Numbered from the stretch's first letter, positions 9,942 through 44,964 are shown. The stretch is DNA of 58,865 nt from Nanobdellota archaeon (GCA_038046465.1 JBBSWB010000041.1:1-58865); one strand, 5' to 3'. Notes: generated by a model not told the origin, from the letters alone. Made by a program: numbers and translations.

Positions 9942-10082
9942 TGGACTTGGCGGGACTTTCGTGCAGCAAAATCTTTTTTGCTTGGTGGGCTTCAGCCCGC
10001 CGTACTTGCCTAGATTGCTGGCATTCGAACCCGCAGCCTTTCACATGCGAAGCGAACGCGATAGCCGTTTCGCCACAAGCCC
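9942..10082 (-). tRNA. tRNA-Ala (anticodon CGC) with a 68-nt intron in the T-loop (intron 9956..10023, position 59/60)
   Basis: Manual fold of the minus strand: GGGCTTG TG GCGA AACGGCTA TCGC G TTCGC TTCGCAT GTGAA AGGCT GCGGG TTCGAA [68 nt] T CCCGC CAAGTCC A. G3:U70 is present, and a helix-bulge-helix-bulge-helix motif sits at the junction. Confidence 0.85.
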
Positions 10083-10144
10083 AACAGAAGCTAAGAAGTA
10101 ATAAACAATATTTAAAGATAGTTGTGTTATAAGAATAATAAAAC

Positions 10145-10459
10145 CTAAATCTCAACCATCTCAATCTCAATATTCAATCCTTCGGGGATAGGAACTCTCA
10201 TCACTAATCTTAAAGTTCGTTCATCAGCAGAAAGATCAATTAAGCGCTTATGTACCCGCATTTCATATCTCTCCCAGGTAGCTTTACCTTCTCCACAAGG
10301 GGATTTACGAGTAGTAACTTTTAATTTTTTAGTAGGCAAAGGAATAGGTCCATGAAGTTTTACACCAGTCTTATCGGCAATATCTTTAATATCAGAACAA
10401 ATTTTATTGATCTTATCAATTTCCGTACTGGCTAATTTTATTCTTGCTCTTTGCGTCAT
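10145..10459 (-). CDS. rps10: 30S ribosomal protein S10
   Basis: Typical S10 sequence (RIKL.S.....L......I.....G....GPIPLPTK), downstream of EF-1alpha as in other archaea. Confidence 0.95.
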
Positions 10460-10540
10460 GATAACCTATGTATACACAGTAATTCTTTTTGGTTACTGTG
10501 CGTTTATTTTTTTAAATATTAAATAAAAAAAATGTAAAAA

Positions 10541-11833
10541 TTACATTTCTTTTTTAACTATTTCCATACACATGCCTGCAGCAACGGTAACTCCTGAGTC
10601 CCTAATTGCAAACCTAGACATCTGAGGAATTTTACTGTTCGGTTCGATAACAACTGGCTGCATTGGTTTTAATCTAATAACTGCAGCTTCGCCGTTTCTT
10701 AAGATGTCTTTGTTTTCTTTGATTTCCTCACCAGTTGCTGGATTGATCTTTTTAAGGATCTCAACAAACTGACAGGCAACCTGAGCAGTGTGGATGTGGA
10801 ATACTGGCGTATAACCCACCGTAACAACACTAGGGTGCTGCATAATTACAACTTGAGCGGTAAATTCAGTAGCAACTGTTGGAACGTTATCAGAGTGTCC
10901 AAGAACGTCTCCTCTGGCAATGTCTTTCTTACCGATTCCTCGTACGTTGAATCCAACGTTATCACCAGGTTCAGCAGAATTCATAGCTTCGTGGTGCATC
11001 TCAATAGTCTTAACTTCACCACTAATACCTTTTCCTTCTCTTCCTGGAACAACGGTAACTTTGTCGCCAACTTTCATTATCCCGGTTTCGATTCTTCCAA
11101 CTGGAACTACTCCGATACCGGTGATGTTATAAACATCCTGAATAGGCAATCTTAAAGGTAAGTTAGTTGGTTTCTGTGGAGCATCAAATTTATTGATTGC
11201 TTCTAATAAACAATCTCCAGTCCACCAAGGCATATGTGCTGGTTTCTTAAGAATATTTTCACCAGGTAAGGAAGCCAAAGGAATAAATCTAACTTTGTCA
11301 ACTTTCCATCCTGCTTGAGTGGCGTGTTTCTTAACTTCTTCAACAACTTCTTTGTATCGTGCTTCAGAATAAGCAACACCAGAAATGTCCATTTTGTTAA
11401 CAGCAACAACTAATTGTCCTACTCCAAAGATTTTACTTAAGCGTAAGTGTTCAATAGTTTGAGCGTTAACGCCGTCGTTAGCAGCTACTACTAGAACTGC
11501 GCAATCAGCCTGAGATGCACCAGTAATCATGTTCTTAATGAAATCTCGGTGCCCAGGAGCGTCGATGATAGTGAAGTAATATTTGTCGGTGTGGAATTCT
11601 TTGTGAGCTAGGTCGATGGTAACCCCTCTTTCCTGCTCTTCTTTTAAATTATCCATGACGAAAGCGAATTCGAAACCAGCTTTACCAAGTTGCTGTGCTC
11701 GTTCTTTCAATTTTCGCATAGCTTGTTCGTCGATATTACCTGAATCGTACAATAATCTACCTACAGTCGTAGATTTACCATGATCTACGTGACCGATGAA
11801 TACTAAGTTGATATGTTCTTTTGCTTTTGCCAT
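10541..11833 (-). CDS. tuf: Translation elongation factor 1-alpha
   Basis: [17 protein letters not shown] and NKMD GTPase motifs; 430 aa. Confidence 0.98.
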
Positions 11834-11968
11834 TATTTATTTCCTCCGTTTTTCTCCAATAATTAGGATTATAAATTTACTTTTCTTTTGTTTTATATTT
11901 ATTTATAAAGCTTTCGGTGATAAATTAGTTAAAATAAAAAATAAAAATAAGAAATTAAAACAAATTGC

Positions 11969-14164
11969 CTAAGCACCTAATTCTCCAGACGACAATCCTT
12001 TCCTTTGGACAATCTGAGTTCGCACTCTTTCTTGTAATTCCGCCGGCAGTTTCTCAAACATCTGGTCGACCAGAGTGGAATTACCTCGTCCTTCAGTCGC
12101 TGAACGCAAGTCGCTGCTCCATCCAATCAATTCGGCAACGGGAAGTTTGGCTTTGACAATTACCTGATCTTCTTCCTGATTCATGTCTAGTAATTGACCT
12201 CGCTTAGAAGAAACAATTTTAGAAATTTCTCCAGTGTATTCAGTAGGCGCTTCTATTCGCATGATCTGCAAGGGCTCAAACATTACTGGTCCAGCCTGCA
12301 TCATTGCTCCTCGAATACCTTCACGAACTGCTGGATACATTTGTGCCGGTCCTCGGTGAATAGCATCTTCGTGTAAGTTACAGTCCATTAAGCTAACTTT
12401 TACACCCATACAAGGTTCTTTAGCTAATGGTCCTGCTTTCATTACATCTTCAAACATGTCTAACACTAGCTCGATGATTTCATTAATGTAAACTATACCT
12501 CGAGTTTGGTCCATAAACATATTGCCGTTGCAAGTAGCTTTAACCATCCCAGCAGTTTTAGTATCCCAGCCGCATTCTTCCCGAAGGAAAGTGATGGTCT
12601 GTTCGTCTCTTTTCCGTAATCTTCCATTGGTAACTTTTCCTTCTTTAATTCCTTGGGCAATTACTGGATCTAAAGGCTCGACGACAAAGTAAAGTTTGTT
12701 GTGCTTGTTAGGAGATTTACCTTCTACTTCTGGGCTTTTCTTAGTAACCGTTTCACGGTATACTACAATTGGCGGAGAAGTTTTAACTTCTACATTTTTT
12801 TCAGTAGTGATCCTGTTTTCAATAATCTCTAAATGCAATTCTCCCATTCCGCTGATTAAGTTTTGTCCGGTTTCTTCATTGATTTCAATTTTGATGGAAG
12901 GATCTTCCCGACCAACTTTTCGCAGAACTTCAATTAACTTAGGCAAATCGGCAGATTTCTTAGCTTCGATAGCTTTAGTAATTACTGGTTCAAAGATATG
13001 TTTTATCTCTTCAAAGGGATGCTCGGGTACAACCGTTACGGTTTCTCCTGCAAATCCCAATACGCCAGAGATAGCTAAAACGTTTCCTGCCGGCAAAGAT
13101 TCGATGATTTCCGGTTTAACTCCGTTATAAATGTAAACGTTTTGAATCCGCTGCTTTTGCTTAGCGTTATTAAGATAGACTTCCATTCCGCTTTTAATTG
13201 TTCCACTAAACAACCGTCCGGCAGAAATGTCTTTTCCTGACCGAGGATCAACTACAATCCTAGTAATAATAAAAGCGATTTGCCCATCAGGGTTACAATT
13301 AACTAAATCTTTTCCCATCTCTGATTCTGGATCGCCACGCCAAATCTTAGGAATTCGATATTTTTGTGCGCTAATCGGATCAGGATGGTGTTTAATAACC
13401 ATGTCTAAGATAACTTCGTGTAAAGGTGCATTATCCCAAACCCAGTTTTTTCGTTCTTCTCCTTCCAGTTCATAAATTTTTAAGATATCAGAGAATTTAA
13501 CATTTTTTTTCTGCATGTACGGAAAGGACAAGGCCCAGTTTTCTCGTGCACTACCAAAAGCAACGCTTCCTTCCTGAACTTTAACTTTCCATAAGTCTTT
13601 ATATTCAGGTTCAGCAATACGTTCAATTAAATTATTAAATTGGCTAACTAAAGTCATAACTCGTTCTGCAATTTTATCCGGAGAAAGTTTTAATTCTTTT
13701 ACCAATCGGTCTACTTTATTAATAAACAGCACCGGTTTAACTCTTTCTCTAAGAGCCTGTCTAACTACAGTTTCCGTCTGCGGCATGATTCCTTCAACTG
13801 CACAGATTAAAACTACTGTACCATCAACTGCTCGCATAGCCCGAGTTACGTTTCCGCCAAAGTCAACGTGACCAGGAGTATCAATAAGATTAATTAAAAA
13901 TTCTTTTTCATCATAATTGTGAACCATGGAAACATTTGCTGCATCAACGGTCATTAAACGTTCCTGCTCGTCTTTGTGCAGCCAAGTAGCCATACCTCCT
14001 TCTAACTGCCCGGCAAATTTTTCTGCCATCATTCCTGCTGCAGCCAGTAAGTTATCAGTAAACGCGGTTTTACCGTGGTGAATGTGTGCACTGGTACAAA
14101 TATTTCTGATTTGCCTAGGGTTCTGCGTAATCCGCATAACCTTATCGACCATTTTTTCTGCCAT
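11969..14164 (-). CDS. fusA: Translation elongation factor 2
   Basis: AHIHHGKT, DTPGHVDF and NKVD motifs; 731 aa. The diphthamide-region sequence HEDAIHRG is present. Confidence 0.98.
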   Translation of the reverse strand: MAEKMVDKVMRITQNPRQIRNICTSAHIHHGKTAFTDNLLAAAGMMAEKFAGQLEGGMATWLHKDEQERLMTVDAANVSMVHNYDEKEFLINLIDTPGHVDFGGNVTRAMRAVDGTVVLICAVEGIMPQTETVVRQALRERVKPVLFINKVDRLVKELKLSPDKIAERVMTLVSQFNNLIERIAEPEYKDLWKVKVQEGSVAFGSARENWALSFPYMQKKNVKFSDILKIYELEGEERKNWVWDNAPLHEVILDMVIKHHPDPISAQKYRIPKIWRGDPESEMGKDLVNCNPDGQIAFIITRIVVDPRSGKDISAGRLFSGTIKSGMEVYLNNAKQKQRIQNVYIYNGVKPEIIESLPAGNVLAISGVLGFAGETVTVVPEHPFEEIKHIFEPVITKAIEAKKSADLPKLIEVLRKVGREDPSIKIEINEETGQNLISGMGELHLEIIENRITTEKNVEVKTSPPIVVYRETVTKKSPEVEGKSPNKHNKLYFVVEPLDPVIAQGIKEGKVTNGRLRKRDEQTITFLREECGWDTKTAGMVKATCNGNMFMDQTRGIVYINEIIELVLDMFEDVMKAGPLAKEPCMGVKVSLMDCNLHEDAIHRGPAQMYPAVREGIRGAMMQAGPVMFEPLQIMRIEAPTEYTGEISKIVSSKRGQLLDMNQEEDQVIVKAKLPVAELIGWSSDLRSATEGRGNSTLVDQMFEKLPAELQERVRTQIVQRKGLSSGELGA

Positions 14165-14278
14165 TGTAAGTTACCTCATTGAAAGATTTGTTAACTTTTT
14201 ATTTTTAAATATTTTATTTTAAATGTTTTATAATCATGTAACTTTATATTTTTCCTATTTATAATTTCATATTAAGTC

Positions 14279-14767
14279 TTAAAACGCATGCGCTTCATGC
14301 ACGGTCTTATAGCTATGTAATTCTTTGGAATTAAACCATAATTTAATCTCTACTTCTGCTTCGGCAACATTACCAGAAGCATGAACTAAATTTTCAATTG
14401 CTTTATTTTGCTCGTCAGTGTATTTAAAAGAATGATGTGCAAAATCCCCGCGGATAGTTCCGGGTAAAGCAGATTTTGGTTCAGTGCCGCCAACAATCTT
14501 TCTTACATTTTCAACGGCATTAATTCCTTCAATACATAAAGCCAGTATTGGTCCAGTAGTCATGAATTTCAGCAAAACTTTCAGCACTTTTTCTCCTCGG
14601 CGCTGGGCAACATCGGCGTAATGTTTTTTTCCAAAATCTTCGTCTATCCAGACCATTTTAGCGCCAATAATTTTTAATCCCGCATCTTCAAAACGGGAAA
14701 TTATCCGCCCCATCAGTCCGCGCTTTACTGCATCAGGTTTTAACAACACCAAAGTTTGTTCTTTCAT
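14279..14767 (-). CDS. ndk: Nucleoside diphosphate kinase
   Basis: TLVLLKPDAV, GTIRGDF and NLVHASG (active-site His) motifs. Confidence 0.93.
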   Translation of the reverse strand: MKEQTLVLLKPDAVKRGLMGRIISRFEDAGLKIIGAKMVWIDEDFGKKHYADVAQRRGEKVLKVLLKFMTTGPILALCIEGINAVENVRKIVGGTEPKSALPGTIRGDFAHHSFKYTDEQNKAIENLVHASGNVAEAEVEIKLWFNSKELHSYKTVHEAHAF

Positions 14768-14772
14768 GATTC

Positions 14773-14958
14773 TCAGCTCTTCCCTCTTTCTTTCCGGGAT
14801 GCTTCAGTCCAGCGTACCCGCAAAGGCTTTCGGTTTAGTTTCAAACAATTTTTTTCGCATTTAGTTGAACAAAAGTAGGAAATTTTTCCGCTGACATAAA
14901 CATACATTTTTCCAGTTCCTTTTTCAATCTGTACTCCACAAAATGTGCATTTAGACAT
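14773..14958 (-). CDS. rpl24e: 50S ribosomal protein L24e
   Basis: C.FCG......G......G....FCS.KC zinc motif; 61 aa. Confidence 0.92.
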
Positions 14959-14963
14959 TTTTC

Positions 14964-15257
14964 CTACCTCCTGCCGCCGCGTCGGGCACCGCCTAGACGC
15001 TGAGCTTCAATTTCTGTTTCCAAGAGCATTAAAATATCACCAGTACGAACTGGGCCTTTAACATTTCTTCGAATGGCTTTGTTCTTATCCCGTCCGTCTA
15101 AAATCTGGCACATCACTTGGGTCAATTCACCACGCGTGCCGGTTCTGCCGACGATTTCTTTAACTTCTGCGGGAATGCCGGGAGAAAATCTAATTTCGCC
15201 TTCAACTTTTACTTCCTCGACTTTCTCGGTTTCTTTTGAAATTATCTTTTTTGCCAT
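14964..15257 (-). CDS. rps28e: 30S ribosomal protein S28e (with N-terminal extension)
   Basis: [49 protein letters not shown] is the S28e core. Confidence 0.9.
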
Positions 15258-15267
15258 GAAAATTCAC

Positions 15268-15591
15268 CTATTTAGATAATTTTGCTAATTGTTCAATTGC
15301 AGATTTGGCTTCGCCTTCTTTAACGACAGCAACTGCAGCCGTAGAAACAGCTAACCCAGCAGCTGCGCCAAGATCATCTTTTTTAGAAACGCCAAAACAA
15401 GGAATATTTTTTTCTTTGCACAATAAAGGCAAATGCATAATAATTTCCTTAGGACTGACATCTTCGGCATACACAACCAATTTTGCTGTTCCTTTCTCAA
15501 TAGCTTTAGTTGTTTCATTCGCGCCTTTGCTTATTTTTCCAGTAGTTCTAGCTACTTCCACTGCTTCCAATACTTTTGCTTCATCAGACAT
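15268..15591 (-). CDS. rpl7ae: 50S ribosomal protein L7Ae (K-turn binding protein)
   Basis: GANETTKAIEKG.AKLV..AEDV.P.EI..HLP.LC.EK.IP is typical of L7Ae. Confidence 0.95.
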   Translation of the reverse strand: MSDEAKVLEAVEVARTTGKISKGANETTKAIEKGTAKLVVYAEDVSPKEIIMHLPLLCKEKNIPCFGVSKKDDLGAAAGLAVSTAAVAVVKEGEAKSAIEQLAKLSK

Positions 15592-15641
15592 TTTATTTAC
15601 CCTCCGTAAATCATAAACATTTTGGTAACAAATAAAGAATT

Positions 15642-15674
15642 GCTACCTCGTTGGATACCAACTCATTGGTAATG
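15642..15674 (-). promoter_or_regulatory. K-turn hairpin in the rpl7ae 5' leader (candidate L7Ae autoregulatory site)
   Basis: Minus strand reads CATTACC AAT GA G TTGG TAT CCAA C GA GGTAGC. This gives a C-stem TTACC/GGTAG, a 3-nt bulge AAT, tandem GA/GA, then the stem TTGG/CCAA. TTTATAAA at 15695-15702 puts the predicted transcription start at the hairpin. Confidence 0.6.
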
Positions 15675-15836
15675 TTCATTAAAAAAGGGGCTTGTTTATA
15701 AAGATTTCTGGAAGAAACTTCAAAAACAAAATATTTTTGTATGATTTCTACTCGTTTCGCTTTATTTTATTCTTAGATTAACCTTTGAGCCATAATTCAC
15801 AACTTACTTAAATTGGTTTTTAATTCTAAAGGGGGC

Positions 15837-17588
15837 ATGTGTGGAATTATTGGGTATATCGGTGAAAAAGAGGCAAATAATATTCTACTTGCCGGCTTAG
15901 AAAGATTAGAATATCGAGGATATGACTCGGCCGGAATGGCTATAATCAGTGAAAATAAAATCAGTATTAATAAAGTTCAGGGAAGAGTTGAAAATTTAAA
16001 AAAAACTTTTTTGCTGGGAAACACCGGTATAGCCCATACTCGCTGGGCCACACATGGAAAACCATCTGAAAGTAATGCTCACCCTTTTACCGATCAGAAT
16101 AATTCTTTTTCAGTTGTCCATAACGGCATTATTGAAAATTACTTAGAATTAAAAGAAGAATTGCGAGGCGCAGGTATAACTTTTTCTTCCGAAACAGATT
16201 CAGAAGTTATCGTCCATTTAATTGCTCAGAATTATGCTGGAAGTCTTAAAGACGCAGTATTAAAAACGGTAAAAAAGCTGCAAGGAGCCTATGCTTTTTG
16301 CGCCATCAAGAATGATGCTCAGGAAATTATTGGAGCTAGAAACGGCAGCCCCTTGGTTATCGGTCTGGGAAATCGGGAAAATTTTCTCGCTTCCGACGTA
16401 TCTGCGTTGATAGAACATACTAAAAAAGTTATCTACTTGAATGATTTTCAGATTGCTGAAATCAAGAAAGACGATTTTAAAATATATGATTTTAATGACG
16501 ATCTACAGAACTACCACGTCAAAGAAATCAATTGGAATTTAGAAAAAGCACAAAAACAAGGGCATAAGCATTTCATGCTCAAGGAAATATTTGAACAGCC
16601 GGAAATCGTCGAAGAATCGTTAAAAGTTCCGATTAATATCCAACCAATAATTCAAAAAGATTTTTCTAAGATTTCCCGAATCATATTTGTCGCCTGCGGT
16701 ACTGCTAGCTATGCCGGATTAGTTGGAAAATATTTGATTGAAACTGTAGCCAAAATCCCAGTGATTAATGAAATTGCTTCTGAGTTTAGATATAAAGAAC
16801 CATTGATTTCTGAGAACGATTTGGTCATCGCCATTTCTCAAAGCGGGGAAACTGCGGACACCTTGGCAGCGATACGTTTAGCTAAGGAAAAAAAAGCTAA
16901 AACCTTAGGAATAATTAATGTCGTCGACAGCACCCTCGCCCGGGAAGTTGATGAAGTTATTTACAGCCGTGCCGGCCCCGAGATTGGTGTGGCTTCCACT
17001 AAAGCATTTATTTCTCAATTAATTATTATCTATAAATTGGCGTTTAAGCTGATAGGTAAAGAATTTCCCTCTGACAATATTGCTCAAAAAATTAAAGAAG
17101 TTCTGGCTTTAAATGAACCCATCAGACAATTAGCAGAAAAATATTATTTATATCAAAATATTCTATATATCGGCAGAAATATCAATTTTCCTCTAGCTTT
17201 AGAAGGAGCGTTAAAATTAAAAGAGATTTCTTACATTCATGCCGAAGCTTATCCGGCAGGAGAACTTAAACACGGCCCGATTGCTTTAGTTTCGGAAGAC
17301 ATGCCGACGGTAGCCATTTGTCCTAACGATCACGTTTATGCTAAAACTATCAGCAATATTGAAGAGATTAAAGCCCGCAGCGGCAAAGTGATTGCAATTG
17401 CCACCGAAGGCGATGAAAAAATAAAAATGATCAGCGACGATGTGATTTACATTCCCAAAGTAGATGAATTATTGTATCCTTTAATAATCGCTATTCCTTT
17501 GCAGTTATTTGCTTATCATGTTGCCGATCTGAAAGAATGTGATATTGATAAGCCTAGGAATCTGGCGAAGAGTGTGACGGTAGAATGA
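15837..17588 (+). CDS. glmS: Glutamine--fructose-6-phosphate aminotransferase
   Basis: MCGIIGY N-terminal nucleophile plus two SIS domains. The start is placed at the ATG at 15837 (Cys2), preceded by AAAGGGGG; the ORF track opens at 15813. Confidence 0.95.
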   Translation: MCGIIGYIGEKEANNILLAGLERLEYRGYDSAGMAIISENKISINKVQGRVENLKKTFLLGNTGIAHTRWATHGKPSESNAHPFTDQNNSFSVVHNGIIENYLELKEELRGAGITFSSETDSEVIVHLIAQNYAGSLKDAVLKTVKKLQGAYAFCAIKNDAQEIIGARNGSPLVIGLGNRENFLASDVSALIEHTKKVIYLNDFQIAEIKKDDFKIYDFNDDLQNYHVKEINWNLEKAQKQGHKHFMLKEIFEQPEIVEESLKVPINIQPIIQKDFSKISRIIFVACGTASYAGLVGKYLIETVAKIPVINEIASEFRYKEPLISENDLVIAISQSGETADTLAAIRLAKEKKAKTLGIINVVDSTLAREVDEVIYSRAGPEIGVASTKAFISQLIIIYKLAFKLIGKEFPSDNIAQKIKEVLALNEPIRQLAEKYYLYQNILYIGRNINFPLALEGALKLKEISYIHAEAYPAGELKHGPIALVSEDMPTVAICPNDHVYAKTISNIEEIKARSGKVIAIATEGDEKIKMISDDVIYIPKVDELLYPLIIAIPLQLFAYHVADLKECDIDKPRNLAKSVTVE

Positions 17589-32858: not shown

Positions 32859-32867
32859 AAAATACTA

Positions 32868-33039
32868 AGAGCCTATCCCGTTAGGGCGTTCAGCAGCATA
32901 AGGTCGAACGTCTTAAATTTACACAGCAAGGGCGTCACGGGGGGTTGTCCCATACGGGGACGCAGCCCTAGCAAATTCACAATGCGATGCGTTCGAATCT
33001 GCTGAACGCCTCTACTTTTTACCTATTGGGATAGGCTCT
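32868..33039 (+). ncRNA. Rod-like GC-rich structured element D (candidate ncRNA, strand uncertain)
   Basis: Nested perfect stems AGAGCCTATCCC/GGGATAGGCTCT (12 bp), GGCGTTCAGCAG/CTGCTGAACGCC (12 bp), TCGAACG/CGTTCGA and GGGCGTC/GACGC. The core is far more GC-rich than the flanks. Confidence 0.4.
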
Positions 33040-33109
33040 AAACAAATAACTACAAATAACTAAAGCGATAAATAATAAAAGCAATAATATTAAAATGATT
33101 TATGTTTAA

Positions 33110-34508: not shown

Positions 34509-34540
34509 CTAGTTTTAACTCTTTTATTTTTTAACGTTTT

Positions 34541-34790
34541 AAAGACTGGACTCGGTGACATAGTGCCTTAAACAACTCCCTTCATCAACTTAACCTTTAG
34601 GGTTATTTTAAAGGTGATCTACGTCGCTTCACAGACAAGCTTAACAAGCACAGGTTTCGTGCAGTGAGTTATAGTCCAGACACCGCATTAATGGCGAGCA
34701 CTTGTAAGAGGCTGCTATGATGGCATCCTTTTCAGGACAACCGAAATGTCCGCTTTTCTACTAACACCAGGAAAGTAGATTAAGTTAAAA
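34541..34790. ncRNA. GC-enriched intergenic block, candidate structured RNA of unknown class
   Basis: About 250 nt with clearly higher GC than the flanks and no ORF. Local helices include CTGGACT/AGTCCAG, GGACA/TGTCC, GCAC/GTGC and GCTT/AAGC. Confidence 0.3.
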
Positions 34791-36599: not shown

Positions 36600-36606
36600 T
36601 TCCTCT

Positions 36607-38256: not shown

Positions 38257-38367
38257 AATCTTTCTTTTAAGTGTTTGTTTTATAATAATTTGTTGCTTTC
38301 ATTATATAAAATATAAGCCATAAATCCAAAACTTTAATAAACAAACCCTCCACTTTCTAATTAATTT

Positions 38368-38486
38368 GCCCCAGTAGCTTAGTGGCTATAGCACCTGACT
38401 TGTAGCCAACTATCTGCTATGTTTCCAACGAAATATAAGCATAGTAAGATATCAGGAGATCGGGAGTTCAACTCTCCCCTGGGGCT
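38368..38486 (+). tRNA. tRNA-Thr (anticodon TGT) with a canonical 46-nt intron at 37/38 (38405..38450)
   Basis: GCCCCAG TA GCTT AGTGGCTA TAGC A CCTGA CTTGTA [46 nt] A TCAGG AGATC GGGAG TTCAACT CTCCC CTGGGGC T. Central BHB helix CTTG/TAAG with 3-nt bulges. Confidence 0.9.
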
Positions 38487-38513
38487 TCCTTTTTTAATTT
38501 GTTTTTCTTTCAT

Positions 38514-38633
38514 GGCTTGTCCAGAATGAAAAACATTTGTATACTGGGGCACGGCGCGATTATAAATTTACTTCGTAAATTTATGCGCCTCCATTGGCAC
38601 CAGTATACAAATTAAGGGTATTCTAGACAAGCC
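38514..38633. other. 120-nt rod-like imperfect palindrome E immediately downstream of tRNA-Thr
   Basis: Nested arms are GGCTTGTC/GACAAGCC, AGAAT/ATTCT, TTTGTATACTGG/CCAGTATACAAA, GGCGC/GCGCC and ATAAATTTAC/GTAAATTTAT. Confidence 0.5.
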
Positions 38634-38732
38634 TTTCTTTCAGAAATTATTATAAACACCAAAACTACCATAATCAATAAAAAGATTAAAAGTAAACAAA
38701 ATTTAAAAAAGGAATAAAAAGAGGTTAAAAAG

Positions 38733-39485
38733 ATGAGACTTAAAAACAAGATTGCAATTATTACCGGTTCCCAACGGGGCATTGGCTTGGGCATTGCTGA
38801 AGAGATGGCCAAGGAAGGCGCTAATGTAGTTATCTCTGATCTCGATCAAAAAGATTGCGAAAAAGTCTGCCAGAGTTTAGAGAAAAAATATAAAATAAAA
38901 ACTTTAGCAGTAAAATGCGATGTTTCCAAGAAAAGTGAAATTGATGATTTAATAGAACAAACCATAACTAAATTCAAGCGCATTGATATTTTAGTCAATA
39001 ATGCCGGTATCGTCCGCTTTGGATCATTGCTGCAAAAGACGGAAAAAGAATGGGATGCCACTTTAGACATTAATTTGAAAAGTGTGTTCCTGTGCACCCA
39101 AGCTGCGGCCAAATATATGGTTAAACAAAAAAGCGGAAAAATAATTTCCTTGGCCAGTATTGCTGGCATGGTTGGTTTTGAAAATGTTGCTGATTATTGC
39201 GCATCGAAAGGAGGGATCATTAACCTCACTAAAGAATTAGCCTTAGAGTTAGCAAAATATAATATCAATGTTAATGCTATTGCTCCGGGAATTATTGAAA
39301 CCAAGATGACTGAAGGCATGCTTAAAGACGCAAAAAGCCGGGAAAATTTACTGGCGCAAACTCCGTTAAGAAGATTTGGCCAGCCGCAAGATATTGGTAA
39401 AGCCGCCGTATTTTTAGCGTCGGAAGAAGCTAATTTTATTACCGGACACACTTTAGTAATCGACGGGGGCTGGTTAGCCCGCTGA
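38733..39485 (+). CDS. Short-chain dehydrogenase/reductase (3-oxoacyl-ACP reductase FabG-like)
   Basis: TGS.RGIG cofactor motif, NNAG, and the S...Y...K catalytic triad (YCASK). Confidence 0.9.
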   Translation: MRLKNKIAIITGSQRGIGLGIAEEMAKEGANVVISDLDQKDCEKVCQSLEKKYKIKTLAVKCDVSKKSEIDDLIEQTITKFKRIDILVNNAGIVRFGSLLQKTEKEWDATLDINLKSVFLCTQAAAKYMVKQKSGKIISLASIAGMVGFENVADYCASKGGIINLTKELALELAKYNINVNAIAPGIIETKMTEGMLKDAKSRENLLAQTPLRRFGQPQDIGKAAVFLASEEANFITGHTLVIDGGWLAR

Positions 39486-39517
39486 ACGAAGAACAGAACA
39501 GACATTCATGAACACAA

Positions 39518-41116
39518 ATGAGATTAAATTTACTTATCGGAGGGAAAGCTGGACAGGGGATTAATAAGTTAGCAGAAATAATCTCTTCGTCATTAGTGCG
39601 TGCCGGCTGGTATGTATTTAATTACAAAGATTACCAAAGCGCAATCAAAGGCGGGCATAATTTTAATTTAATCAGTATCTCCGACCAAAATCTAGCTGCT
39701 TATGAAGAAGATTTAGATCTGCTGTTTGCGTTTGATGCACAGACTTATGACGAACATAAAAAAAATATCAGTAAAAAAACTATTCTAGCAACTGCAGATT
39801 CAGAATTAAATAAAAAAGTAGGCGGATTTTTTTTAGATTTATCCCAACTGGGTAAATTTGGCAACATGGCTTTTGCTGGATTTTTATTTAAGTGTTTAGG
39901 ATTAGATAAAAAATTTCTGCTGGAAGAAATAGAAAAAGAATTCAAACAAAAAGAGATTGTTATCGAGAATAAAAAAATTATTGAACAGTTTTATGCTCCT
40001 GAATACTCAGTGGATTTAAAACTGCCGGAACCACAGCAAAATGAACCACAACACCAACAAAAAAAAGAACTGCCGGGATACTCTCACTTATCCGGATCAG
40101 AAGCAATTTCTCAAGCAGCAGTGGAAGCAGGTTTAGAAATTTATTTTGGTTATCCCATGACTCCCTCTACCGGCGTATTGTCTTCCTTAGCTTTGAAACA
40201 AAAAGAAAACAAAGATTTATTTGTGTTTACCCCTGAAAATGAAATTGCTGTAATCAATTCCGCTTTAGGAGCTAGTTTTGCAGGAAGAAAAGTAATGGTC
40301 GGTACTTCTGGCGGAGGATTTGATTTGATGAGTGAAGCCATGAGTTTACAGGGGATGGTTGAGTTGCCTTTAGTGATTCATTTATCTCAACGGGCCGGAC
40401 CAGGAACGGGAGTTCCAACTTATTCTGGACAAGGTGATTTAAATGCGGCTATCTATGCCGGGCATGGTGAATTTCCTCGGTTAGTGGTTGCTCCAGGAGA
40501 TGCACAAGAAGCTTATGAAAAAACAATTGAAGCATTTTATCTTGCAGAAAAATTTAAGCTCCTGTCGATAATTTTAACGGATAAACATCTTGCTGAATCT
40601 GGTTATACCGACCAAATAAAAAAATCTTCCGTGGTTGTTCCTAAACGAGAAGATCTACTTAGCCAAGGCGTGGTTAAGAAAAATAGTTATGAACACGATT
40701 TATTTGGAAACACTACCGAAATCGCCGCAGAAATTAAAGAGAATACCGACCGAAGAATTGCTAAAACCAAACTAGTGGAAAAAGAAACTCAAAAATTTAC
40801 GCGCTACAAATTTTACGGAACAGGAAAAAATTTATTGATTGGCTTTGGCTCTACCAAAGGAGGCATTCTTGATGCTCTCCCTAATCTTCCTGAGTTTAGT
40901 TATTTACATTTAATTTATCTTGAACCTTTCCCTTCCGAAATTATTGCTTACCTACAGAAAGCAAAAAAAATATTGGTTATTGAACAAAATTCCACTGGAC
41001 AATTAGCCGATCTGCTCAGTAAACAATTAGCAGTTACTATTCCTGAACATAATAGAATCCTAAAGTATGATGGGCGCCCGTTCACGGCAAAAGATTTGTT
41101 AGGGAGAATAAAATAA
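39518..41116 (+). CDS. 2-oxoacid:ferredoxin oxidoreductase alpha subunit (gamma-alpha fusion, two-subunit type)
   Basis: N-terminal gamma-like GGKAGQGI domain followed by an alpha domain (GYPMTPST...), with the beta subunit directly downstream. Confidence 0.85.
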   Translation: MRLNLLIGGKAGQGINKLAEIISSSLVRAGWYVFNYKDYQSAIKGGHNFNLISISDQNLAAYEEDLDLLFAFDAQTYDEHKKNISKKTILATADSELNKKVGGFFLDLSQLGKFGNMAFAGFLFKCLGLDKKFLLEEIEKEFKQKEIVIENKKIIEQFYAPEYSVDLKLPEPQQNEPQHQQKKELPGYSHLSGSEAISQAAVEAGLEIYFGYPMTPSTGVLSSLALKQKENKDLFVFTPENEIAVINSALGASFAGRKVMVGTSGGGFDLMSEAMSLQGMVELPLVIHLSQRAGPGTGVPTYSGQGDLNAAIYAGHGEFPRLVVAPGDAQEAYEKTIEAFYLAEKFKLLSIILTDKHLAESGYTDQIKKSSVVVPKREDLLSQGVVKKNSYEHDLFGNTTEIAAEIKENTDRRIAKTKLVEKETQKFTRYKFYGTGKNLLIGFGSTKGGILDALPNLPEFSYLHLIYLEPFPSEIIAYLQKAKKILVIEQNSTGQLADLLSKQLAVTIPEHNRILKYDGRPFTAKDLLGRIK

Positions 41117-41139
41117 AGACCAACCTGAGTGAAATAAAA

Positions 41140-41937
41140 ATGTTAGAAACTAAAAATAAAATTACCTGGTGCCCAGGATGTCCCAATTATCTGATTAAGC
41201 AGGCCATCCAAACGGCCATAACTAATCTAATTCAACAAGGTTACCCTAAGGAAAGTTTTGTAGTAGTTACTGATATTGGCTGCAGCAGTAAAATCTATGA
41301 TTATTTAGACCTCTCTGCTTTTTATGGTCTGCATGGGCGGGCGATTCCCACTGGATTTGGAATTAAAGTCGGTAATCCTAAATTAAATGTGCTGGTTATT
41401 GCCGGAGATGGAGGCACCTATAATGAAGGGCTTGATCATTTTATTCACGCCTGTAGATATAATATTAATCTGACTCTGTTAGTCCACAACAATGGTGCGT
41501 TTTCTTTAACTACCGGACAAGCTTCAGCAACCACTAAAAAAGGTTTTATAGAAAAAACCCATCCGTTTGGCGTGCAAGAAGATGCTCTTAACCCGTTAAG
41601 TTTAGCCTTAGAATCGGGGGCTAGTTTTGTAGCCAGAACTTCGGCTTTAGATTTAAATCAAATGGCTGCTATCATTGAGCAAGGCATAAAACATCCGGGC
41701 TTTTCATTTATAGACATTTTACAGCCGTGTTTAATTTACAATAATTTTTCAGAAGTTTTGAAAAAAAATAGTTATATACTAAAAAACCCTTTACCGTTAG
41801 AAAAAGCACTGGTTGAAGCTAGAAAAAGCGCGTTTGCTTTGGAAAATCCGGCTAAAGAAAAAATAGCTCTGGGCGTTTTCTTTCAAGAAAAAAAGCCAAC
41901 TTTTGAAGAGAAATATTTTCAAAACCGAAATATTTAA
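41140..41937 (+). CDS. 2-oxoacid:ferredoxin oxidoreductase beta subunit (TPP-binding)
   Basis: WCPGCPNY and GDGG..NEG thiamine-diphosphate motifs. Confidence 0.88.
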   Translation: MLETKNKITWCPGCPNYLIKQAIQTAITNLIQQGYPKESFVVVTDIGCSSKIYDYLDLSAFYGLHGRAIPTGFGIKVGNPKLNVLVIAGDGGTYNEGLDHFIHACRYNINLTLLVHNNGAFSLTTGQASATTKKGFIEKTHPFGVQEDALNPLSLALESGASFVARTSALDLNQMAAIIEQGIKHPGFSFIDILQPCLIYNNFSEVLKKNSYILKNPLPLEKALVEARKSAFALENPAKEKIALGVFFQEKKPTFEEKYFQNRNI

Positions 41938-42000
41938 AAACAAAAAGCCTTTTTAACCAATAAGATAAATGATAGGTGTTAATCATTCTGGGTGTTAATT

Positions 42001-42630
42001 ATGGAAGAAAGCTTAAAAACTGGTACAACCACTGTTGGTTTAGTTTGTAAAGATGGAATCGTCTTAGCTGCTGATAAAAGAGCAACAGCTGGAGATATGA
42101 TCGTTGATAAAAGAGCAGAAAAAGTGCATATCATTTCTGATGATTTTGCTTTGACTATTGCCGGAGGAGTTTCTGACGCACAATTGCTGATCAAATTAAT
42201 CCGCGCAGAACTTAAGTTAAAAGAAGTATACACGGGTAAAAGACCAACTGCAAAAGAAGCAGCAAATTTATTGGGCGGATTAGTGTATAATGCTATCCGC
42301 AGACCTTCCATGCTGCCGGGAATCGTTCATTTTCTGTTAGCAGGTAAAGATATTCAAGGACTACACTTATACGATTTATTCCCTGACGGAAGTATTACTC
42401 ATATAAGAGATTACATTTCTTCCGGTTCAGGATCCGTTTTCGCTTACGGAGTATTAGAAACCCATTATAAAAAAGATATGACTGTAACTGAAGCAGTTGA
42501 GGTAGCTGTAAAAGCTATTAATACTGCCTTGCAAAGAGATTGCAATACGGGCAATGGAATAGATGTAATGGTTATTAATGAGAAGGAAATCAAGCGGGTG
42601 ATGCACAAAGAATTAGTGTATAATCTGTAA
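42001..42630 (+). CDS. psmB: Proteasome beta subunit
   Basis: Short propeptide, then TGTTTVGLVCKDGIVLAADKRAT with the Thr1 nucleophile. ATG at 42001 is preceded by GGTG; the track start is a GTG at 41992. Confidence 0.93.
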   Translation: MEESLKTGTTTVGLVCKDGIVLAADKRATAGDMIVDKRAEKVHIISDDFALTIAGGVSDAQLLIKLIRAELKLKEVYTGKRPTAKEAANLLGGLVYNAIRRPSMLPGIVHFLLAGKDIQGLHLYDLFPDGSITHIRDYISSGSGSVFAYGVLETHYKKDMTVTEAVEVAVKAINTALQRDCNTGNGIDVMVINEKEIKRVMHKELVYNL

Positions 42631-42711
42631 GAATGAATAAATTCTAAACAATTAATCTTCTTTATTATTACCAATAATGTACAGTAAATTATCACGAGGA
42701 AATACTTAACT

Positions 42712-44601
42712 ATGCCAGACATATTAAAAGAAATAATAAAAATCCTTCCTAAAGGCAAAATCTCTGATGCTGCTTTTGAAGGAGCAAACATTGTACTTTA
42801 TACTAAAGACCCAGAATATTTCATGGATAATAATGGCACCATTAGGGATGCCGTAAAAGAATTTAGAAAAAGAATTGAACTGCGTTCTGATCCGGCTTTG
42901 TGTTTAGAAGTCGAGAAAGCAGAAAAACTGTTAAAAGAACTTATTCCCGAAGAAGCGGGAGCTCAAGAATTTATCTTTGACCCGCCGCGCTCACAGGTTA
43001 TTATTCATGCCGATAAACCCGGATTAGTTATTGGAAAACAGGGAGAAATCTTAAGAGAAATACGTGCTAAAACTTTTTGGGTGCCGTTAATAAAACGCTT
43101 GCCTCCGATCAGATCAAAATTAATTGAAAGTATCCGTTCCGTTCTGTATGAACATGCTGATGAAAGAAAAAAGTTCCTGGATAAAACCGGACACCGGATT
43201 TATGACGGCTGGATTAGATCAAAAAAACACGAATGGGTTAGATTATCCTGTTTAGGTGCATCCCGGCAAGTTGGAAGAACCTGTTTCTTAATTCAAACTC
43301 CTGAATCACGAGTGTTAATTGATTGCGGTATTGACGCTAGCCAGGAAGGCACGGAAGCTTATCCTTTTTTAGATGCCCCTGAATTTAACATCAGCGAATT
43401 AGATGCAGTTATCGTTACTCACTCCCACTTAGATCATTCTGGTTTGATTCCTTACTTGTTTAAATTTGGATATACTGGACCAGTATATTGTACTCTTCCT
43501 ACTCGGGATGTTATGGCCCTGTTGCAATTAGATATGGTTAAAATTCAGCGCAGTGAAGGTAAAGAACCAATTTATACTAGTGAAGAAGTTCGACAAATGG
43601 TTTTACATACCATCTGCTTAGAGTATGAAGAAGTGACTGATATCACTCCTGATGTCCGCTTAACTTTTTATGGTGCGGGACACGTCATTGGAAGTTCCAT
43701 TGTGCATTTAAACATTGGAAATGGATTACATAATTTTGCTTATACTGGTGATTTAAAATATGCTCGAACTAATGTCTTAGAACCAGGTAATACTCAATTT
43801 CCCCGTCTGGAAACTTTAATGATTGAATCTACTTATGGTGGAAAAGAAAATGTTATGGCTGAAAAAGAAGCCGATGATTACATGATTAAAGTTATCCAAG
43901 AAACTTTTGCGCGGGGCGGGAAAGTATTGATGCCTGTATTAGGCTCAGGAAGAGCCCAGGAAGTAATGATTATTGTAGAAAGACTGATGCGGGAAAAATT
44001 AATCCCTGATGCGCCCGTATACCTTGATGGGATGTTATGGGACGTTACGGCTATTCATACCGCTTATCCAGAATATTTAAATCGAAACATTCGCGAACAG
44101 ATTTTCCATAAAGAAAATAATCCTTTCTTATCCGGAATATTCAAACAAGTTGGCTCTCCTAAAGAAAGAAAACAGATCATGTTAGAAGAAGGGTCTTGTT
44201 TAATCTTGGCAACTTCAGGAATGCTTACCGGCGGACCTTCCGTCGAATACCTTAAAGGATTGGGAGAAGGAAAAAAACATTCTTTGATCTTTAGCTGTTA
44301 TCAACCTCCCGGAAGTATGGGTTACCGCATTAGAAACGGAGAAAAAGAGATTATGGTCCGAGAAGAAGGTAAAAACCAGGTGCTTAAAATAAATATGGAA
44401 GTGCACAAAGTAGAAATTACCAACCACTCTGACCGAAAACAATTGATGAATTATGTAAAAAGATGTAATCCTCAGCCTAAAAAAGTCATTGTAGTGCACG
44501 GAGAAAGTTCAAGATGCTTAGATTTAGCTTCTTCGATACATAAGGTATACCGCATTGAAACGGTTGCTCCTAAAAACCTGGAAGTTATCAGGATTAAATA
44601 G
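42712..44601 (+). CDS. aCPSF1: KH-domain beta-CASP metallo-beta-lactamase ribonuclease
   Basis: N-terminal KH-like region, HSHLDHSG metallo-beta-lactamase motif and beta-CASP motifs; 629 aa, typical of archaeal CPSF1. Confidence 0.93.
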   Translation: MPDILKEIIKILPKGKISDAAFEGANIVLYTKDPEYFMDNNGTIRDAVKEFRKRIELRSDPALCLEVEKAEKLLKELIPEEAGAQEFIFDPPRSQVIIHADKPGLVIGKQGEILREIRAKTFWVPLIKRLPPIRSKLIESIRSVLYEHADERKKFLDKTGHRIYDGWIRSKKHEWVRLSCLGASRQVGRTCFLIQTPESRVLIDCGIDASQEGTEAYPFLDAPEFNISELDAVIVTHSHLDHSGLIPYLFKFGYTGPVYCTLPTRDVMALLQLDMVKIQRSEGKEPIYTSEEVRQMVLHTICLEYEEVTDITPDVRLTFYGAGHVIGSSIVHLNIGNGLHNFAYTGDLKYARTNVLEPGNTQFPRLETLMIESTYGGKENVMAEKEADDYMIKVIQETFARGGKVLMPVLGSGRAQEVMIIVERLMREKLIPDAPVYLDGMLWDVTAIHTAYPEYLNRNIREQIFHKENNPFLSGIFKQVGSPKERKQIMLEEGSCLILATSGMLTGGPSVEYLKGLGEGKKHSLIFSCYQPPGSMGYRIRNGEKEIMVREEGKNQVLKINMEVHKVEITNHSDRKQLMNYVKRCNPQPKKVIVVHGESSRCLDLASSIHKVYRIETVAPKNLEVIRIK

Positions 44602-44605
44602 TTCT

Positions 44606-44726
44606 AAAAGCCACCCGCCTGGCCAAGATGAGCGCGAGAGAATGTTTATTTTAATCAAAAATTAATTCCTATCCCTTTAAATTTTAATTGCAAGGATAGG
44701 TCGAGCGCTCGGCCAGGGTGGCTTTT
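44606..44726 (+). repeat. Structured hairpin repeat, copy C (family A/B/C)
   Basis: Stems are AAAAGCCACCC/GGGTGGCTTTT, CCTGGCC/GGCCAGG, GAGCGC/GCGCTC and CCTATCC/GGATAGG. Homologous to the reverse complement of 25997..26118. Confidence 0.7.
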
Positions 44727-44819
44727 GCGACCAGCTTAGACAGACTAATTCTACCTAAATATTTATAAAACCGATTAGGATTTTAATGACGTTAGTGCCA
44801 GTTGTTCACTCACGTTCAC

Positions 44820-44964
44820 GCCAGCGTCGCATAATTCGGTACTTTGCATAAGCAAAGGTTTACGCGAAGCGAAAAATTGCGCAGGTCTTGAAAACCTGTT
44901 CCTTCGGGAATTCTCGGTTCAAAGCCAGCAATCTAAATTGCTGATGAAATTCCGAGCGCTGGCG
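44820..44964 (+). tRNA. tRNA-Ser (anticodon TGA) with two introns: about 35 nt in the D-loop (about 44842..44876) and 27 nt in the T-loop at 59/60 (44924..44950)
   Basis: GCCAGCG TC GCA TAATTCGGTA [35] T TGC G CAGGT CTTGAAA ACCTG, long variable arm TTCC-TTCG-GGAA, then CTCGG TTCAAA [27] T CCGAG CGCTGGC G. Perfect hBHBh' at the T-loop junction. Confidence 0.8.

What the first reader, a model, noticed from the sequence alone, without database searches (positions are those of the whole stretch)
9956..44950. Homologous intron sequence at the same T-loop position in unrelated tRNAs (Ala and Ser): a sign of intron mobility
The tRNA-Ala intron starts T-GCCAGCAATCTAGGC... and closes with ...TTTTGCTGCACGAAAG. 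The tRNA-Ser(UGA) intron reads GCCAGCAATCTAAATTGCTGATGAAAT.
- The first 12 nt, GCCAGCAATCTA, are identical.
- The same CAGCAA/TTGCTG helix closes both introns.
- The Ala version looks like the Ser version with an insertion of about 40 nt in its loop.

The host tRNAs are unrelated apart from the generic T-arm. Shared ancestry of the intron, by transposition or gain at BHB sites, is therefore more likely than vertical descent. Intron transposition between tRNA genes has been proposed for Thermoproteales. I am not aware that it has been described for DPANN-type genomes.
Basis: partly seen in the sequence, partly recalled or inferred. Interest (0 to 1): 0.74.

Follow-up and report, generated by a model that had tools for sequence, protein, structure and literature searches.

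The report
Mobile intron family in tRNA T-loops
Two unrelated tRNA genes of this groundwater DPANN archaeon carry versions of one intron at the same spot in the T-loop, and the same intron sits at that spot in many other tRNAs across related genomes, so archaeal tRNA introns spread between genes in this lineage too.

Summary
tRNA-Ala(CGC) (9942-10082, minus strand) and tRNA-Ser(UGA) (44820-44964, plus strand) each carry an intron between T-loop positions 59 and 60. Both introns open with GCCAGCAATCTA and close with a CAGCAA/UUGCUG helix. In-silico splicing gives clean cloverleaf tRNAs.

The shared sequence is not forced by splicing. A second tRNA-Ser(CGA) in the window has an unrelated intron at the same site.

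Database scans show the pair belongs to a family:
- About 70 nt long, with a long closing helix and a conserved inner hairpin domain.
- Always at 59/60, in more than 20 distinct tRNA genes of at least nine amino-acid types.
- Found across about 20 Woesearchaeota/Nanoarchaeota genome assemblies (MAGs).

The Ser copy is an internally deleted mini version, not the ancestral form.

Copies mostly track their host tRNA, which indicates an old spread followed by vertical descent. Turnover continues, however. The syntenic tRNA-Ser(UGA) of the sister genome has no introns, and an outgroup has a different T-loop intron. In an unbiased set, 27 of 52 tRNA-Ser genes carry some 59/60 intron, from several families.

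Rare non-tRNA copies flanked by 21-41-nt direct repeats hint at insertion at the DNA level.

This is a new variant of the intron transposition known from Thermoproteales. I found no prior description.

The parts
9942..10082 (-). tRNA-Ala(CGC) gene. Exon 1 is 10082-10024, the intron is 10023-9956, and exon 2 is 9955-9942.
   Evidence: The spliced 73-nt sequence is called tRNA-Ala(cgc) with G3:U70. On the unspliced DNA, ARAGORN gives a wrong 3' end that borrows intron bases. Rfam misses the gene.
9956..10023 (-). Full-length family-1 T-loop intron (68 nt) between positions 59 and 60.
   Evidence: 85.2 bits with model R1. T-stem, 4-bp central helix and 3-nt 3' bulge appear in the MFE fold. The sister genome has the same intron with 7 of 68 positions changed.
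10011..10022 (-). GCCAGCAATCTA, the 5' strand of closing helix P1 in the Ala intron.
9981..10010 (-). Conserved inner domain: GGCAAGU, then the hairpin GGCGGGC-UGAA-GCCCACC with a C.A mismatch, then AAGC.
   Evidence: GGC-AGU, GGCGGG and CCCA-CC are at least 95% conserved in 21 distinct copies ascertained only on the T-loop plus 12-mer. The hairpin-closing pair covaries, UA 17 / CG 12.
9963..9969 (-). UUGCUGC, the 3' strand of P1 in the Ala intron.
9956..9961 (-). CGAA pairs with U54-G57 to form the central BHB helix. The AG that follows, together with U60 (9955), forms the 3' bulge.
   Evidence: The R57:Y pair covaries across the family, AU 19 / GC 14.
44820..44964 (+). tRNA-Ser(UGA) gene with two introns. 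Exons are 44820-44840, 44876-44923 and 44951-44964.
   Evidence: The doubly spliced 83-nt sequence is called tRNA-Ser(tga). ARAGORN and Rfam do not find it on the raw DNA. The syntenic intron-less ortholog in L210 differs from the spliced sequence by one base.
44924..44950 (+). 27-nt mini version of the family-1 T-loop intron: 12-mer at 44924-44935, P1 3' strand AUUGCUG at 37-43, UGAA at 44945-48, AU at 49-50.
   Evidence: 30.3 bits, E about 3e-6, with the whole inner domain absent. The 7-bp P1 helix appears in the MFE fold, z = -3.7. Similar minis occur in relatives: L040, L010:5913-5959, L158.
44841..44875 (+). 35-nt D-loop intron of tRNA-Ser(UGA), belonging to a second shared intron family.
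   Evidence: BHB with UUCG/CGAA central helix. Homologous introns occur in tRNA-Ser(UGA) of L205 and in tRNA-Ala(GGC) of L010, L024 and L036.
48690..48735 (+). Comparator: a 46-nt intron at the same 59/60 site in tRNA-Ser(CGA) (gene 48600-48749), with unrelated sequence ('family 2').
   Evidence: Strict hBHBh' in the MFE fold, z = -5.3. Model R1 matches on structure only, 23 bits. It is 45/46 identical to the T-loop intron of tRNA-Ser(GGA) in the sister genome, L243.

Best explanation
Both introns belong to one family of archaeal bulge-helix-bulge (BHB) introns that is specialised for the T-loop.

How splicing would work:
- The intron's 3' end (YGAA plus two nucleotides) pairs with the near-universal U54-U55-C56-R57. 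This gives the 4-bp central helix.
- The T-stem on one side and the intron's own closing helix P1 (GCCAGCAAUCUA / UAGAUUGCUGC) on the other are the outer helices.
- The two splice sites lie in the bulges A58-A59-N and N-N-U60.
- Because the intron brings its own half of the recognition structure, and the other half is common to all tRNAs, it can be spliced from any tRNA at 59/60.
- The splicing endonuclease and RtcB ligase then restore the T-loop. This step is inferred.

History of the family:
- It colonised many tRNA genes in an ancestor of this Woesearchaeota-like clade.
- It has since been inherited mainly with its host genes.
- Losses, replacements by other 59/60 intron families and internal deletions continue.

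The window's Ala copy is full length. The Ser copy is a deletion derivative that keeps only what splicing needs. The conserved inner domain is therefore not needed for splicing. It probably serves mobility or binds a protein; that is inference.
For: Shown by the analyses:
- Spliced products are canonical tRNAs.
- BHB geometry and folds.
- Covariation in the T-stem, in the R57:Y pair and in the P2 hairpin. 93.9% of cells are paired against 82.5% in shuffles, and 18 pairs have changes on both sides.
- 31 DPANN hits to T-loop plus 12-mer, all in tRNA T-loops, several per genome.
- Of 19 DPANN hits to the inner motif, 18 are at a T-loop.
- About 30 further T-loop copies in metagenomes.
- Hosts with clean calls: Ala, Ser, Leu, Met, Val, Gly, Ile, Thr and Arg.
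- Orthologous copies are more alike than copies in different hosts, 0.74 against 0.68, p = 3e-4.
- Precise presence/absence at a syntenic locus in the sister genome.
- 27 of 52 tRNA-Ser genes have a 59/60 intron, from several unrelated families.
- Mini introns that lack the inner domain sit in otherwise intact tRNA genes.
Against: - There are no RNA data, so splicing and the use of these genes are inferred.
- The 5' bulge lies in a 3x1 or 4x1 internal loop, so the BHB is relaxed. For the Ser mini intron the weak UUCA/UGAA helix is not in the MFE fold.
- Copies in one genome are no more alike than copies in different genomes, 0.69 against 0.68, p = 0.36. There is thus no sign of ongoing transposition.
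- The intron-less sister allele is at least partly a loss, because the outgroup L205 keeps the D-loop intron.
- The conservation estimates come from copies found by exact-match scans, so diverged copies are under-sampled. L080, L034:3137 and L014:3598 are examples of diverged copies.
- No enzyme for mobility was identified, and no EndA gene appears in the Pfam listings covering about 7.5-14.8 kb and 16-58 kb of the window.
Confidence: 0.8

Rival explanations
1. The 12-nt identity and the shared helix are chance, or are imposed by the splicing endonuclease, and do not reflect common descent.
For: The 3' ends (YGAA plus 2 nt) really are constrained. All 27 T-loop introns of tRNA-Ser genes end this way whatever their family. 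About 30 bacterial chance hits to the 18-19-nt pattern exist in 596 Gb.
Against: Two exact 12-mers at the same offset from the splice site have a probability of about 6e-8 per pair. The 12-mer occurs nowhere else in the window. tRNA-Ser(CGA) in the window and many relatives are predicted to be spliced at 59/60 with unrelated helices. L014:3598 has a fully compensated, different P1 with the same inner domain. The DPANN hits share a further conserved domain, and the bacterial hits do not.
Confidence: 0.02
2. A recent direct transfer within this genome: the Ser mini intron was copied from the Ala intron, or from another resident family-1 copy, after the split from the sister genome.
For: The sister genome's syntenic tRNA-Ser(UGA) has no T-loop intron. 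The outgroup L205 has a different intron there. The Ser 12-mer equals the window's own Ala 12-mer, while the sister's Ala copy has drifted to ACCAGCAATCTG.
Against: The 12-mer is simply the family consensus, so it does not point to Ala as the donor. Family-1 introns occur in tRNA-Ser genes of other genomes: L034, L229, L230, L247. The sister allele has also lost the ancestral D-loop intron, so a single precise double loss or an allele replacement explains its state. There is no same-genome similarity signal.
Confidence: 0.25
3. The family is a small DNA-level mobile element, MITE-like or inserted at staggered breaks. P1 would be its terminal inverted repeat, and it survives inside tRNA genes only because it is spliced as a BHB intron.
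For: P1 is formally a 10-12-bp terminal inverted repeat. Non-tRNA copies start exactly at GCCAGC and are flanked by direct repeats of local sequence:
- L166/L193, 41 nt
- L173/L200, 33 nt, with the diverged ortholog L203 at 25 nt
- L171, 26 nt
- L066, 21-29 nt in a T-E-T-E-T arrangement
. Reviews suppose that transposition in Thermoproteales occurs at the DNA level (PMC4090602).
Against: T-loop copies have no target duplication; the 3' YGAA is complementary to the T-loop, not a copy of it. The repeat lengths vary (21-41 nt), unlike the fixed duplications made by transposases. Most non-tRNA copies lack the right arm of P1. No transposase or reverse transcriptase was found. There were no hits in viral contigs.
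Confidence: 0.25
4. The introns persist and look alike because the inner domain is a functional RNA, for example a stable circular intron RNA or a protein-binding module. The cause would be selection, not mobility.
For: About 20 non-ascertained positions are at least 95% conserved across genomes whose EF-1alpha proteins differ by 12-18%. Between the window and its sister genome the Ala intron changed at 10% of sites, against 23% of third codon positions. The 3' strand of P1 is far more variable than its 5' strand.
Against: A function does not explain how one sequence came to sit in more than 20 different tRNA genes, so spread is still required. Mini introns and intron-less alleles are tolerated. 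There is no Rfam match, no C/D boxes and no canonical K-turn (by inspection). Ascertainment inflates the apparent conservation.
Confidence: 0.3

Closest known systems
[quoted passage not shown] 2010, as summarised in PMC4033280 and PMC4090602)
   Same: Very similar BHB introns sit in tRNA genes of different isoacceptors whose bodies are unrelated. This is read as intron gain by transposition, mechanism unknown.
   Different: - The lineage here is DPANN (Woesearchaeota/Nanoarchaeota), not Crenarchaeota.
- One fixed site (59/60) is used, rather than many canonical and non-canonical sites.
- The intron uses the universal T-loop as its pairing partner.
- It has a conserved structured inner domain.
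- The copies are old and mostly inherited vertically.
- Non-tRNA copies exist with flanking direct repeats.
Non-canonical introns and broad-specificity EndA in DPANN (ARMAN-2 epsilon2 EndA, PMC3239211; L3-loop EndAs and increased tRNA disruption in DPANN, PMC5829648)
   Same: DPANN genomes are known to carry multiple and non-canonical tRNA introns with relaxed BHB motifs, and standard predictors miss some of their tRNAs.
   Different: Those papers describe the enzymes and count introns. They analysed one Woesearchaeota and one Pacearchaeota genome. They do not describe a conserved T-loop intron family, its hosts or its turnover.
tRNA-Thr intron gain and 5'-fragment duplication through a mobile element in Caldiarchaeum (PMC3293823)
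   Same: Population-level presence/absence of tRNA introns, and a duplicated tRNA 5' fragment next to the gene. Compare window 48526-48612 and L066.
   Different: In Caldiarchaeum a 1.8-kb recombinase-encoding element lies between the copies. Here the intervening pieces are 36-80 nt and encode nothing.
Functional intron of archaeal tRNA-Trp (box C/D guide RNA)
   Same: An intron whose sequence is conserved beyond what splicing requires.
   Different: No C and D box arrangement, no Rfam match, a different position, and many hosts instead of one.

Membership tests
Archaeal BHB (bulge-helix-bulge) tRNA intron | Removing the intron restores a canonical cloverleaf tRNA | tested here: met
   ARAGORN calls tRNA-Ala(cgc) and tRNA-Ser(tga) after in-silico splicing.
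Archaeal BHB (bulge-helix-bulge) tRNA intron | Two 3-nt bulges on opposite strands, separated by a 4-bp helix and flanked by helices (hBHBh' or a relaxed form) | tested here: met
   Present: the central helix UUCR/YGAA, the 3-nt 3' bulge, and the T-stem and P1 as outer helices. The central pair R57:Y covaries. The 5' bulge faces one unpaired base, so the form is relaxed. The neighbouring Ser(CGA) intron is strict.
Archaeal BHB (bulge-helix-bulge) tRNA intron | Cleavage by the splicing endonuclease EndA and ligation by RtcB | not testable with these tools
   No RNA or enzyme data. No EndA or RtcB Pfam hit among the genes listed for about 7.5-14.8 kb and 16-58 kb of the window. The rest of the genome was not examined.
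Transposed tRNA intron cluster (Thermoproteales type) | Near-identical intron sequence in tRNA genes of different isoacceptors or isotypes | tested here: met
   More than 20 distinct T-stem/acceptor combinations. Clean calls for Ala, Ser, Leu, Met, Val, Gly, Ile, Thr and Arg.
Transposed tRNA intron cluster (Thermoproteales type) | Members of one cluster occur at various canonical and non-canonical positions | tested here: not met
   All tRNA copies are at 59/60. The exceptions are non-tRNA or unclear contexts (L066, L166, L171, L173).
MITE / DNA transposon | Terminal inverted repeats plus a target-site duplication of fixed length | tested here: inconclusive
   P1 is a 10-12-bp inverted repeat. 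T-loop copies show no duplication. Non-tRNA copies have direct repeats of 21-41 nt and variable length, and usually lack the right arm.
Box C/D sRNA-bearing intron | C box RUGAUGA near the 5' end and D box CUGA near the 3' end, forming a K-turn | tested here: not met
   No Rfam hit at E <= 1. By inspection, only a fortuitous CUGAUGA occurs, at the P1/central-helix junction of the Ser mini intron.

The most novel reading that the evidence does not exclude
The family may be a true mobile element whose unit is the 5' module (GCCAGCAAUCUA plus the conserved hairpin domain). On this reading it inserts at the DNA level, or through an RNA intermediate whose 5' end is the EndA cut. It leaves 21-41-bp duplications of the target, as seen at promoters, at the ends of tRNA genes and in a tRNA-like gene. 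It becomes fixed preferentially in T-loops because only there can it be spliced out. The T-E-T loci would then be the first insertion footprints known for archaeal BHB introns. The inner domain would be the handle for the unknown machinery.
Probability: 0.25. Interest if true: 0.85.

Novelty: new variant of a known kind. Interest (0 to 1): 0.64.

Why it matters
How archaeal BHB introns are gained has been open since the Thermoproteales work, and the mechanism is still called unknown (PMC4090602). This lineage offers a cleaner system for four reasons:
- One site and a few recognisable families.
- Dozens of sequenced relatives.
- Precise presence/absence alleles between sister genomes.
- Candidate insertion footprints outside tRNAs.

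It also explains a practical problem. In this window only one of four tRNA genes is found correctly by Rfam, and ARAGORN's only call has a wrong end. The 'missing' tRNAs of DPANN MAGs are therefore partly an annotation artefact caused by T-loop and D-loop introns.

Tried and rejected
- **Rfam.** Searches at gathering and E <= 1 thresholds found nothing for the introns.
- **RNA motifs by inspection.** K-turn, C/D box and sarcin-ricin readings of the inner loop do not fit consistently. Tandem GA pairs are possible, but the unbulged strand carries 4 variable nucleotides.
- **Target-site duplication for T-loop copies.** Rejected. In TTCAAA hosts the intron ends UGAA, which is the complement of the T-loop and not a copy of it.
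- **Same-genome homogenisation.** No signal, p = 0.36.
- **Synteny of tRNA-Ala.** Checked downstream of EF-1alpha/S10 in 80 relatives. It is conserved only in the sister genome, so there is no wider presence/absence series for Ala.
- **Viral contigs.** No copies.
- **L066.** I could not parse the tRNA-like gene with its tandem T-E units.
- **Host calls.** Automated anticodon calls for hosts with extra introns are unreliable, since the same gene was called differently in different genomes. I count only clean calls plus the T-stem/acceptor classes.
- **Literature.** Searches for a DPANN T-loop intron family found nothing. Subscription journals are not covered.


Full report
**1. What is in the window**

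The window is a Hainich groundwater contig, ENA ERZ1292630, Hain_H41_02um_R3_241. It carries archaeal genes: EF-2, EF-1alpha, S10, proteasome and aCPSF1. Its EF-1alpha is 70-99% identical to those of 80 MAGs labelled Woesearchaeota or Nanoarchaeota, or labelled (apparently wrongly) 'uncultured Methanosarcinales'.

GCCAGCAATCTA occurs exactly twice, at 10011-10022 (minus) and 44924-44935 (plus). Each copy follows a T-loop TTCRAA.

- Removing 10023-9956 gives a 73-nt tRNA-Ala(CGC) with G3:U70.
- Removing 44924-44950 and a further D-loop intron at 44841-44875 gives an 83-nt tRNA-Ser(UGA).

Standard tools fail on the raw DNA. ARAGORN reports only the Ala gene, and with a false 3' end. Rfam reports only a tRNA-Thr with a canonical intron.

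**2. Anatomy**

In both introns the last six nucleotides are YGAA plus two more.

- YGAA pairs with U54-U55-C56-R57 to form the 4-bp central helix.
- The T-stem is one outer helix. The intron helix P1 (CAGCAAUCUA / UAGAUUGCUG in full-length copies, CAGCAAU / AUUGCUG in Ser) is the other.
- The 3' splice site lies in a canonical 3-nt bulge.
- The 5' site lies in a 3-nt bulge that faces one unpaired base, so the BHB is relaxed.

Across 39 distinct family members the R57:Y pair covaries, AU 19 / GC 14. The T-stem covaries as expected, and 93.9% of cells are paired against 82.5% in shuffles.

The 12-mer and the P1 helix are not forced:

- A second tRNA-Ser(CGA) gene at 48600-48749 was missed by both tools. 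It has a 46-nt intron at the same site with a strict BHB and an unrelated helix.
- One relative (L014:3598-3704) keeps the inner domain with a completely different, compensated P1.

**3. It is a family**

Three collection scans found it:

- Species-representative genomes, scanned for T-loop plus 12-mer, gave 61 loci. 31 are in DPANN MAGs and all of these are in tRNA T-loops, often several per genome. The other 30 are bacterial or haloarchaeal coding-sequence matches at about the chance rate, and they lack everything downstream.
- A scan for the inner motif alone gave 19 DPANN hits. 18 are at a T-loop, and 15 of those carry the exact T-loop-plus-12-mer pattern of the first scan.
- A metagenome scan added about 30 more T-loop copies.

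The consensus is (U)GCCAGCAAUCUA GGCRAGUU GGGCGGG-loop-CCCACC GCGA nnnn UAGAUUGCnGC YGAA AG. A second inner-domain variant also exists (GGCAAGUUCCUCAAGUGGGG...CCCCACGA).

A covariance model scores the window's Ala intron at 85 bits and the Ser intron at 30 bits, with the whole inner domain deleted.

Other mini versions exist: L040 at 37 nt, plus L010:5913 and L158. The full-length form is the widespread one. The Ser copy is therefore best read as an internal deletion, not the Ala copy as an insertion.

The hosts comprise more than 20 different T-stem/acceptor combinations. Clean isotype calls are Ala, Ser, Leu, Met, Val, Gly, Ile, Thr and Arg.

**4. Old spread, continuing turnover**

Evidence that the spread is old:

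- Core identity is higher between orthologous hosts in different genomes (0.74) than between different hosts (0.68, p = 3e-4).
- Copies in one genome are not more alike (0.69, p = 0.36).
- Copies are therefore mainly inherited with their tRNA.

Evidence on rate, from the sister genome CAZKNU01:

- Its EF-1alpha is 99% identical in protein and 91% in DNA, and 23% of third codon positions differ.
- It has the same Ala intron with 7 of 68 changes, against 1 of 73 in the exons.
- The intron thus evolves more slowly than silent sites but faster than the exons.

Evidence on conservation:

- In 21 distinct copies ascertained only on the T-loop plus 12-mer, about 20 further positions (GGC-AGU, GGCGGG, CCCA-CC) are at least 95% conserved.
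- The 3' strand of P1 is variable.
- The genomes involved differ by 12-18% in EF-1alpha.
- This suggests a constraint beyond splicing. The exact-match scans do, however, under-sample decayed copies.

Evidence that turnover continues, from tRNA-Ser(UGA):

- The sister genome's copy lies in the same gene neighbourhood and has no introns at all. Both the 35-nt and the 27-nt intron are precisely absent.
- An outgroup (L205, EF-1alpha 88%) has a homologous D-loop intron but a different T-loop intron.
- So the D-loop intron is ancestral and was lost in the sister genome, and the T-loop intron has been replaced or re-acquired.

In a sample chosen only by the tRNA-Ser 5' exon, 27 of 52 genes have a 59/60 intron, from several unrelated sequence families. 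The window's Ser(CGA) intron is 45/46 identical to the one in tRNA-Ser(GGA) of the sister genome, and it is related to introns in five other genomes.

**5. Copies outside T-loops**

In several AT-rich, DPANN-like contigs the element starts exactly at GCCAGC and carries the inner hairpin. It usually lacks the right arm of P1. It is flanked by direct repeats of local sequence:

| Locus | Repeat length |
|---|---|
| L166/L193 | 41 nt |
| L173/L200 (diverged ortholog L203) | 33 nt (25 nt) |
| L171 | 26 nt |
| L066, arranged T-E-T-E-T | 21-29 nt |

The same loci recur in independent samples, which argues against assembly artefacts. The window has an analogous structure at 48526-48612: a 23-nt duplicate of the tRNA-Ser(CGA) 5' end around an unrelated 36-nt insert.

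I cannot explain these structures. They look like insertion with a long target duplication of variable length.

**6. Comparison with what is known**

The closest precedent is the intron transposition inferred in Thermoproteales. There, similar introns sit in unrelated tRNAs at many positions, and the mechanism is unknown (PMC4033280, PMC4090602).

DPANN genomes are known to have disrupted tRNAs and EndA variants with extra loops (PMC5829648, PMC3239211).

I found no description of a conserved T-loop intron family in DPANN.

The present case differs in five ways:
- a single insertion site;
- the universal T-loop as pairing partner;
- a conserved inner domain;
- clear presence/absence alleles;
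- the non-tRNA copies.

**7. Verdict**

Three corrections apply:
- Ser is a deletion form.
- The 3' similarity is forced by splicing.
- The spread is old, and there is no evidence of a direct Ala-to-Ser transfer.

The case is a new variant of a known kind and a promising system for working out how BHB introns move.

Noticed in passing
window 48600-48749 (+): A third intron-bearing tRNA gene, tRNA-Ser(CGA), is missed by ARAGORN and Rfam. It has an anticodon-loop intron (about 48638-48659) and a 46-nt T-loop intron (48690-48735). Its exons and immediate flanks (TTCACTCACGTTCAC upstream, CTTTTTATTTT downstream) match those of tRNA-Ser(UGA), yet the two genes share no intron.
   Followed up: yes
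window 48526-48612 (+): A 23-nt direct repeat (TCACrTTCACGCCAGCGTCGCAT), covering the upstream flank plus the first 13 nt of tRNA-Ser(CGA), brackets a 36-nt unrelated insert. The layout is the same T-E-T arrangement seen around non-tRNA copies of the intron element in other contigs.
   Followed up: partly
window 44841-44875 (+); L010, L024, L036, L110, L205: The D-loop intron of tRNA-Ser(UGA) (ACUUUGCAUAAGCAAAG...GCGAAAA) belongs to a second shared family. That family occurs after GGU of the D-loop in tRNA-Ala(GGC) and tRNA-Ser of relatives. Its 3' end likewise pairs with the conserved loop bases.
   Followed up: partly
window 38368-38486 (+): tRNA-Thr(UGU) has a canonical 37/38 intron of about 48 nt that starts GCCAACTATCTG. 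This matches the T-loop 12-mer at 9 of 12 positions. Possibly related, possibly chance.
   Followed up: no
window 32870-33040 (+): A GC-rich intergenic stretch has nested inverted repeats: an outer AGAGCCTATCCC / GGGATAGGCTCT and an inner 13-bp GGGCGTTCAGCAG / CTGCTGAACGCC. It also contains a TTCGAAT motif. It looks like a structured RNA with a processing stem. It has no Rfam match, I could not parse it as a tRNA or a 5S rRNA, and it has no match in the fetched loci.
   Followed up: partly
window 34530-34790: An unannotated stretch inside an 880-nt intergenic gap, richer in G+C than its AT-rich surroundings by eye. It has no Rfam match at E <= 1. It may be a divergent structured RNA.
   Followed up: no
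L066 2329-2670: The sequence TGGACCTGCCCGGAATTrCAC occurs three times, about 99 nt apart. This is the 5' part of a tRNA-like gene. Each of the first two copies is followed by a family-1 element that lacks the right arm of P1. The third continues into a structured region ending in CAGGTCC. I could not parse the gene.
   Followed up: partly
L243 1058-1420 (-), sister genome: tRNA-Met(CAU), with a canonical intron and a family-1 T-loop intron (T-loop CUCAAAU), lies 6 nt upstream of tRNA-Ser(GGA), which has a family-2 T-loop intron. Two intron families thus sit side by side in one probable transcription unit.
   Followed up: partly
Genome contigs record titles (L005, L010, L080 and others): Many MAGs titled 'uncultured Methanosarcinales archaeon' (binchicken and ERP co-assemblies) have EF-1alpha 80-99% identical to Woesearchaeota/Nanoarchaeota MAGs and carry the same intron family. 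The taxonomic label is probably wrong.
   Followed up: partly
window 38534-38596 (-): A sub-threshold Rfam match to GA-cis RNA (27.6 bits against a gathering score of 34.7) lies just downstream of tRNA-Thr. Probably chance.
   Followed up: no
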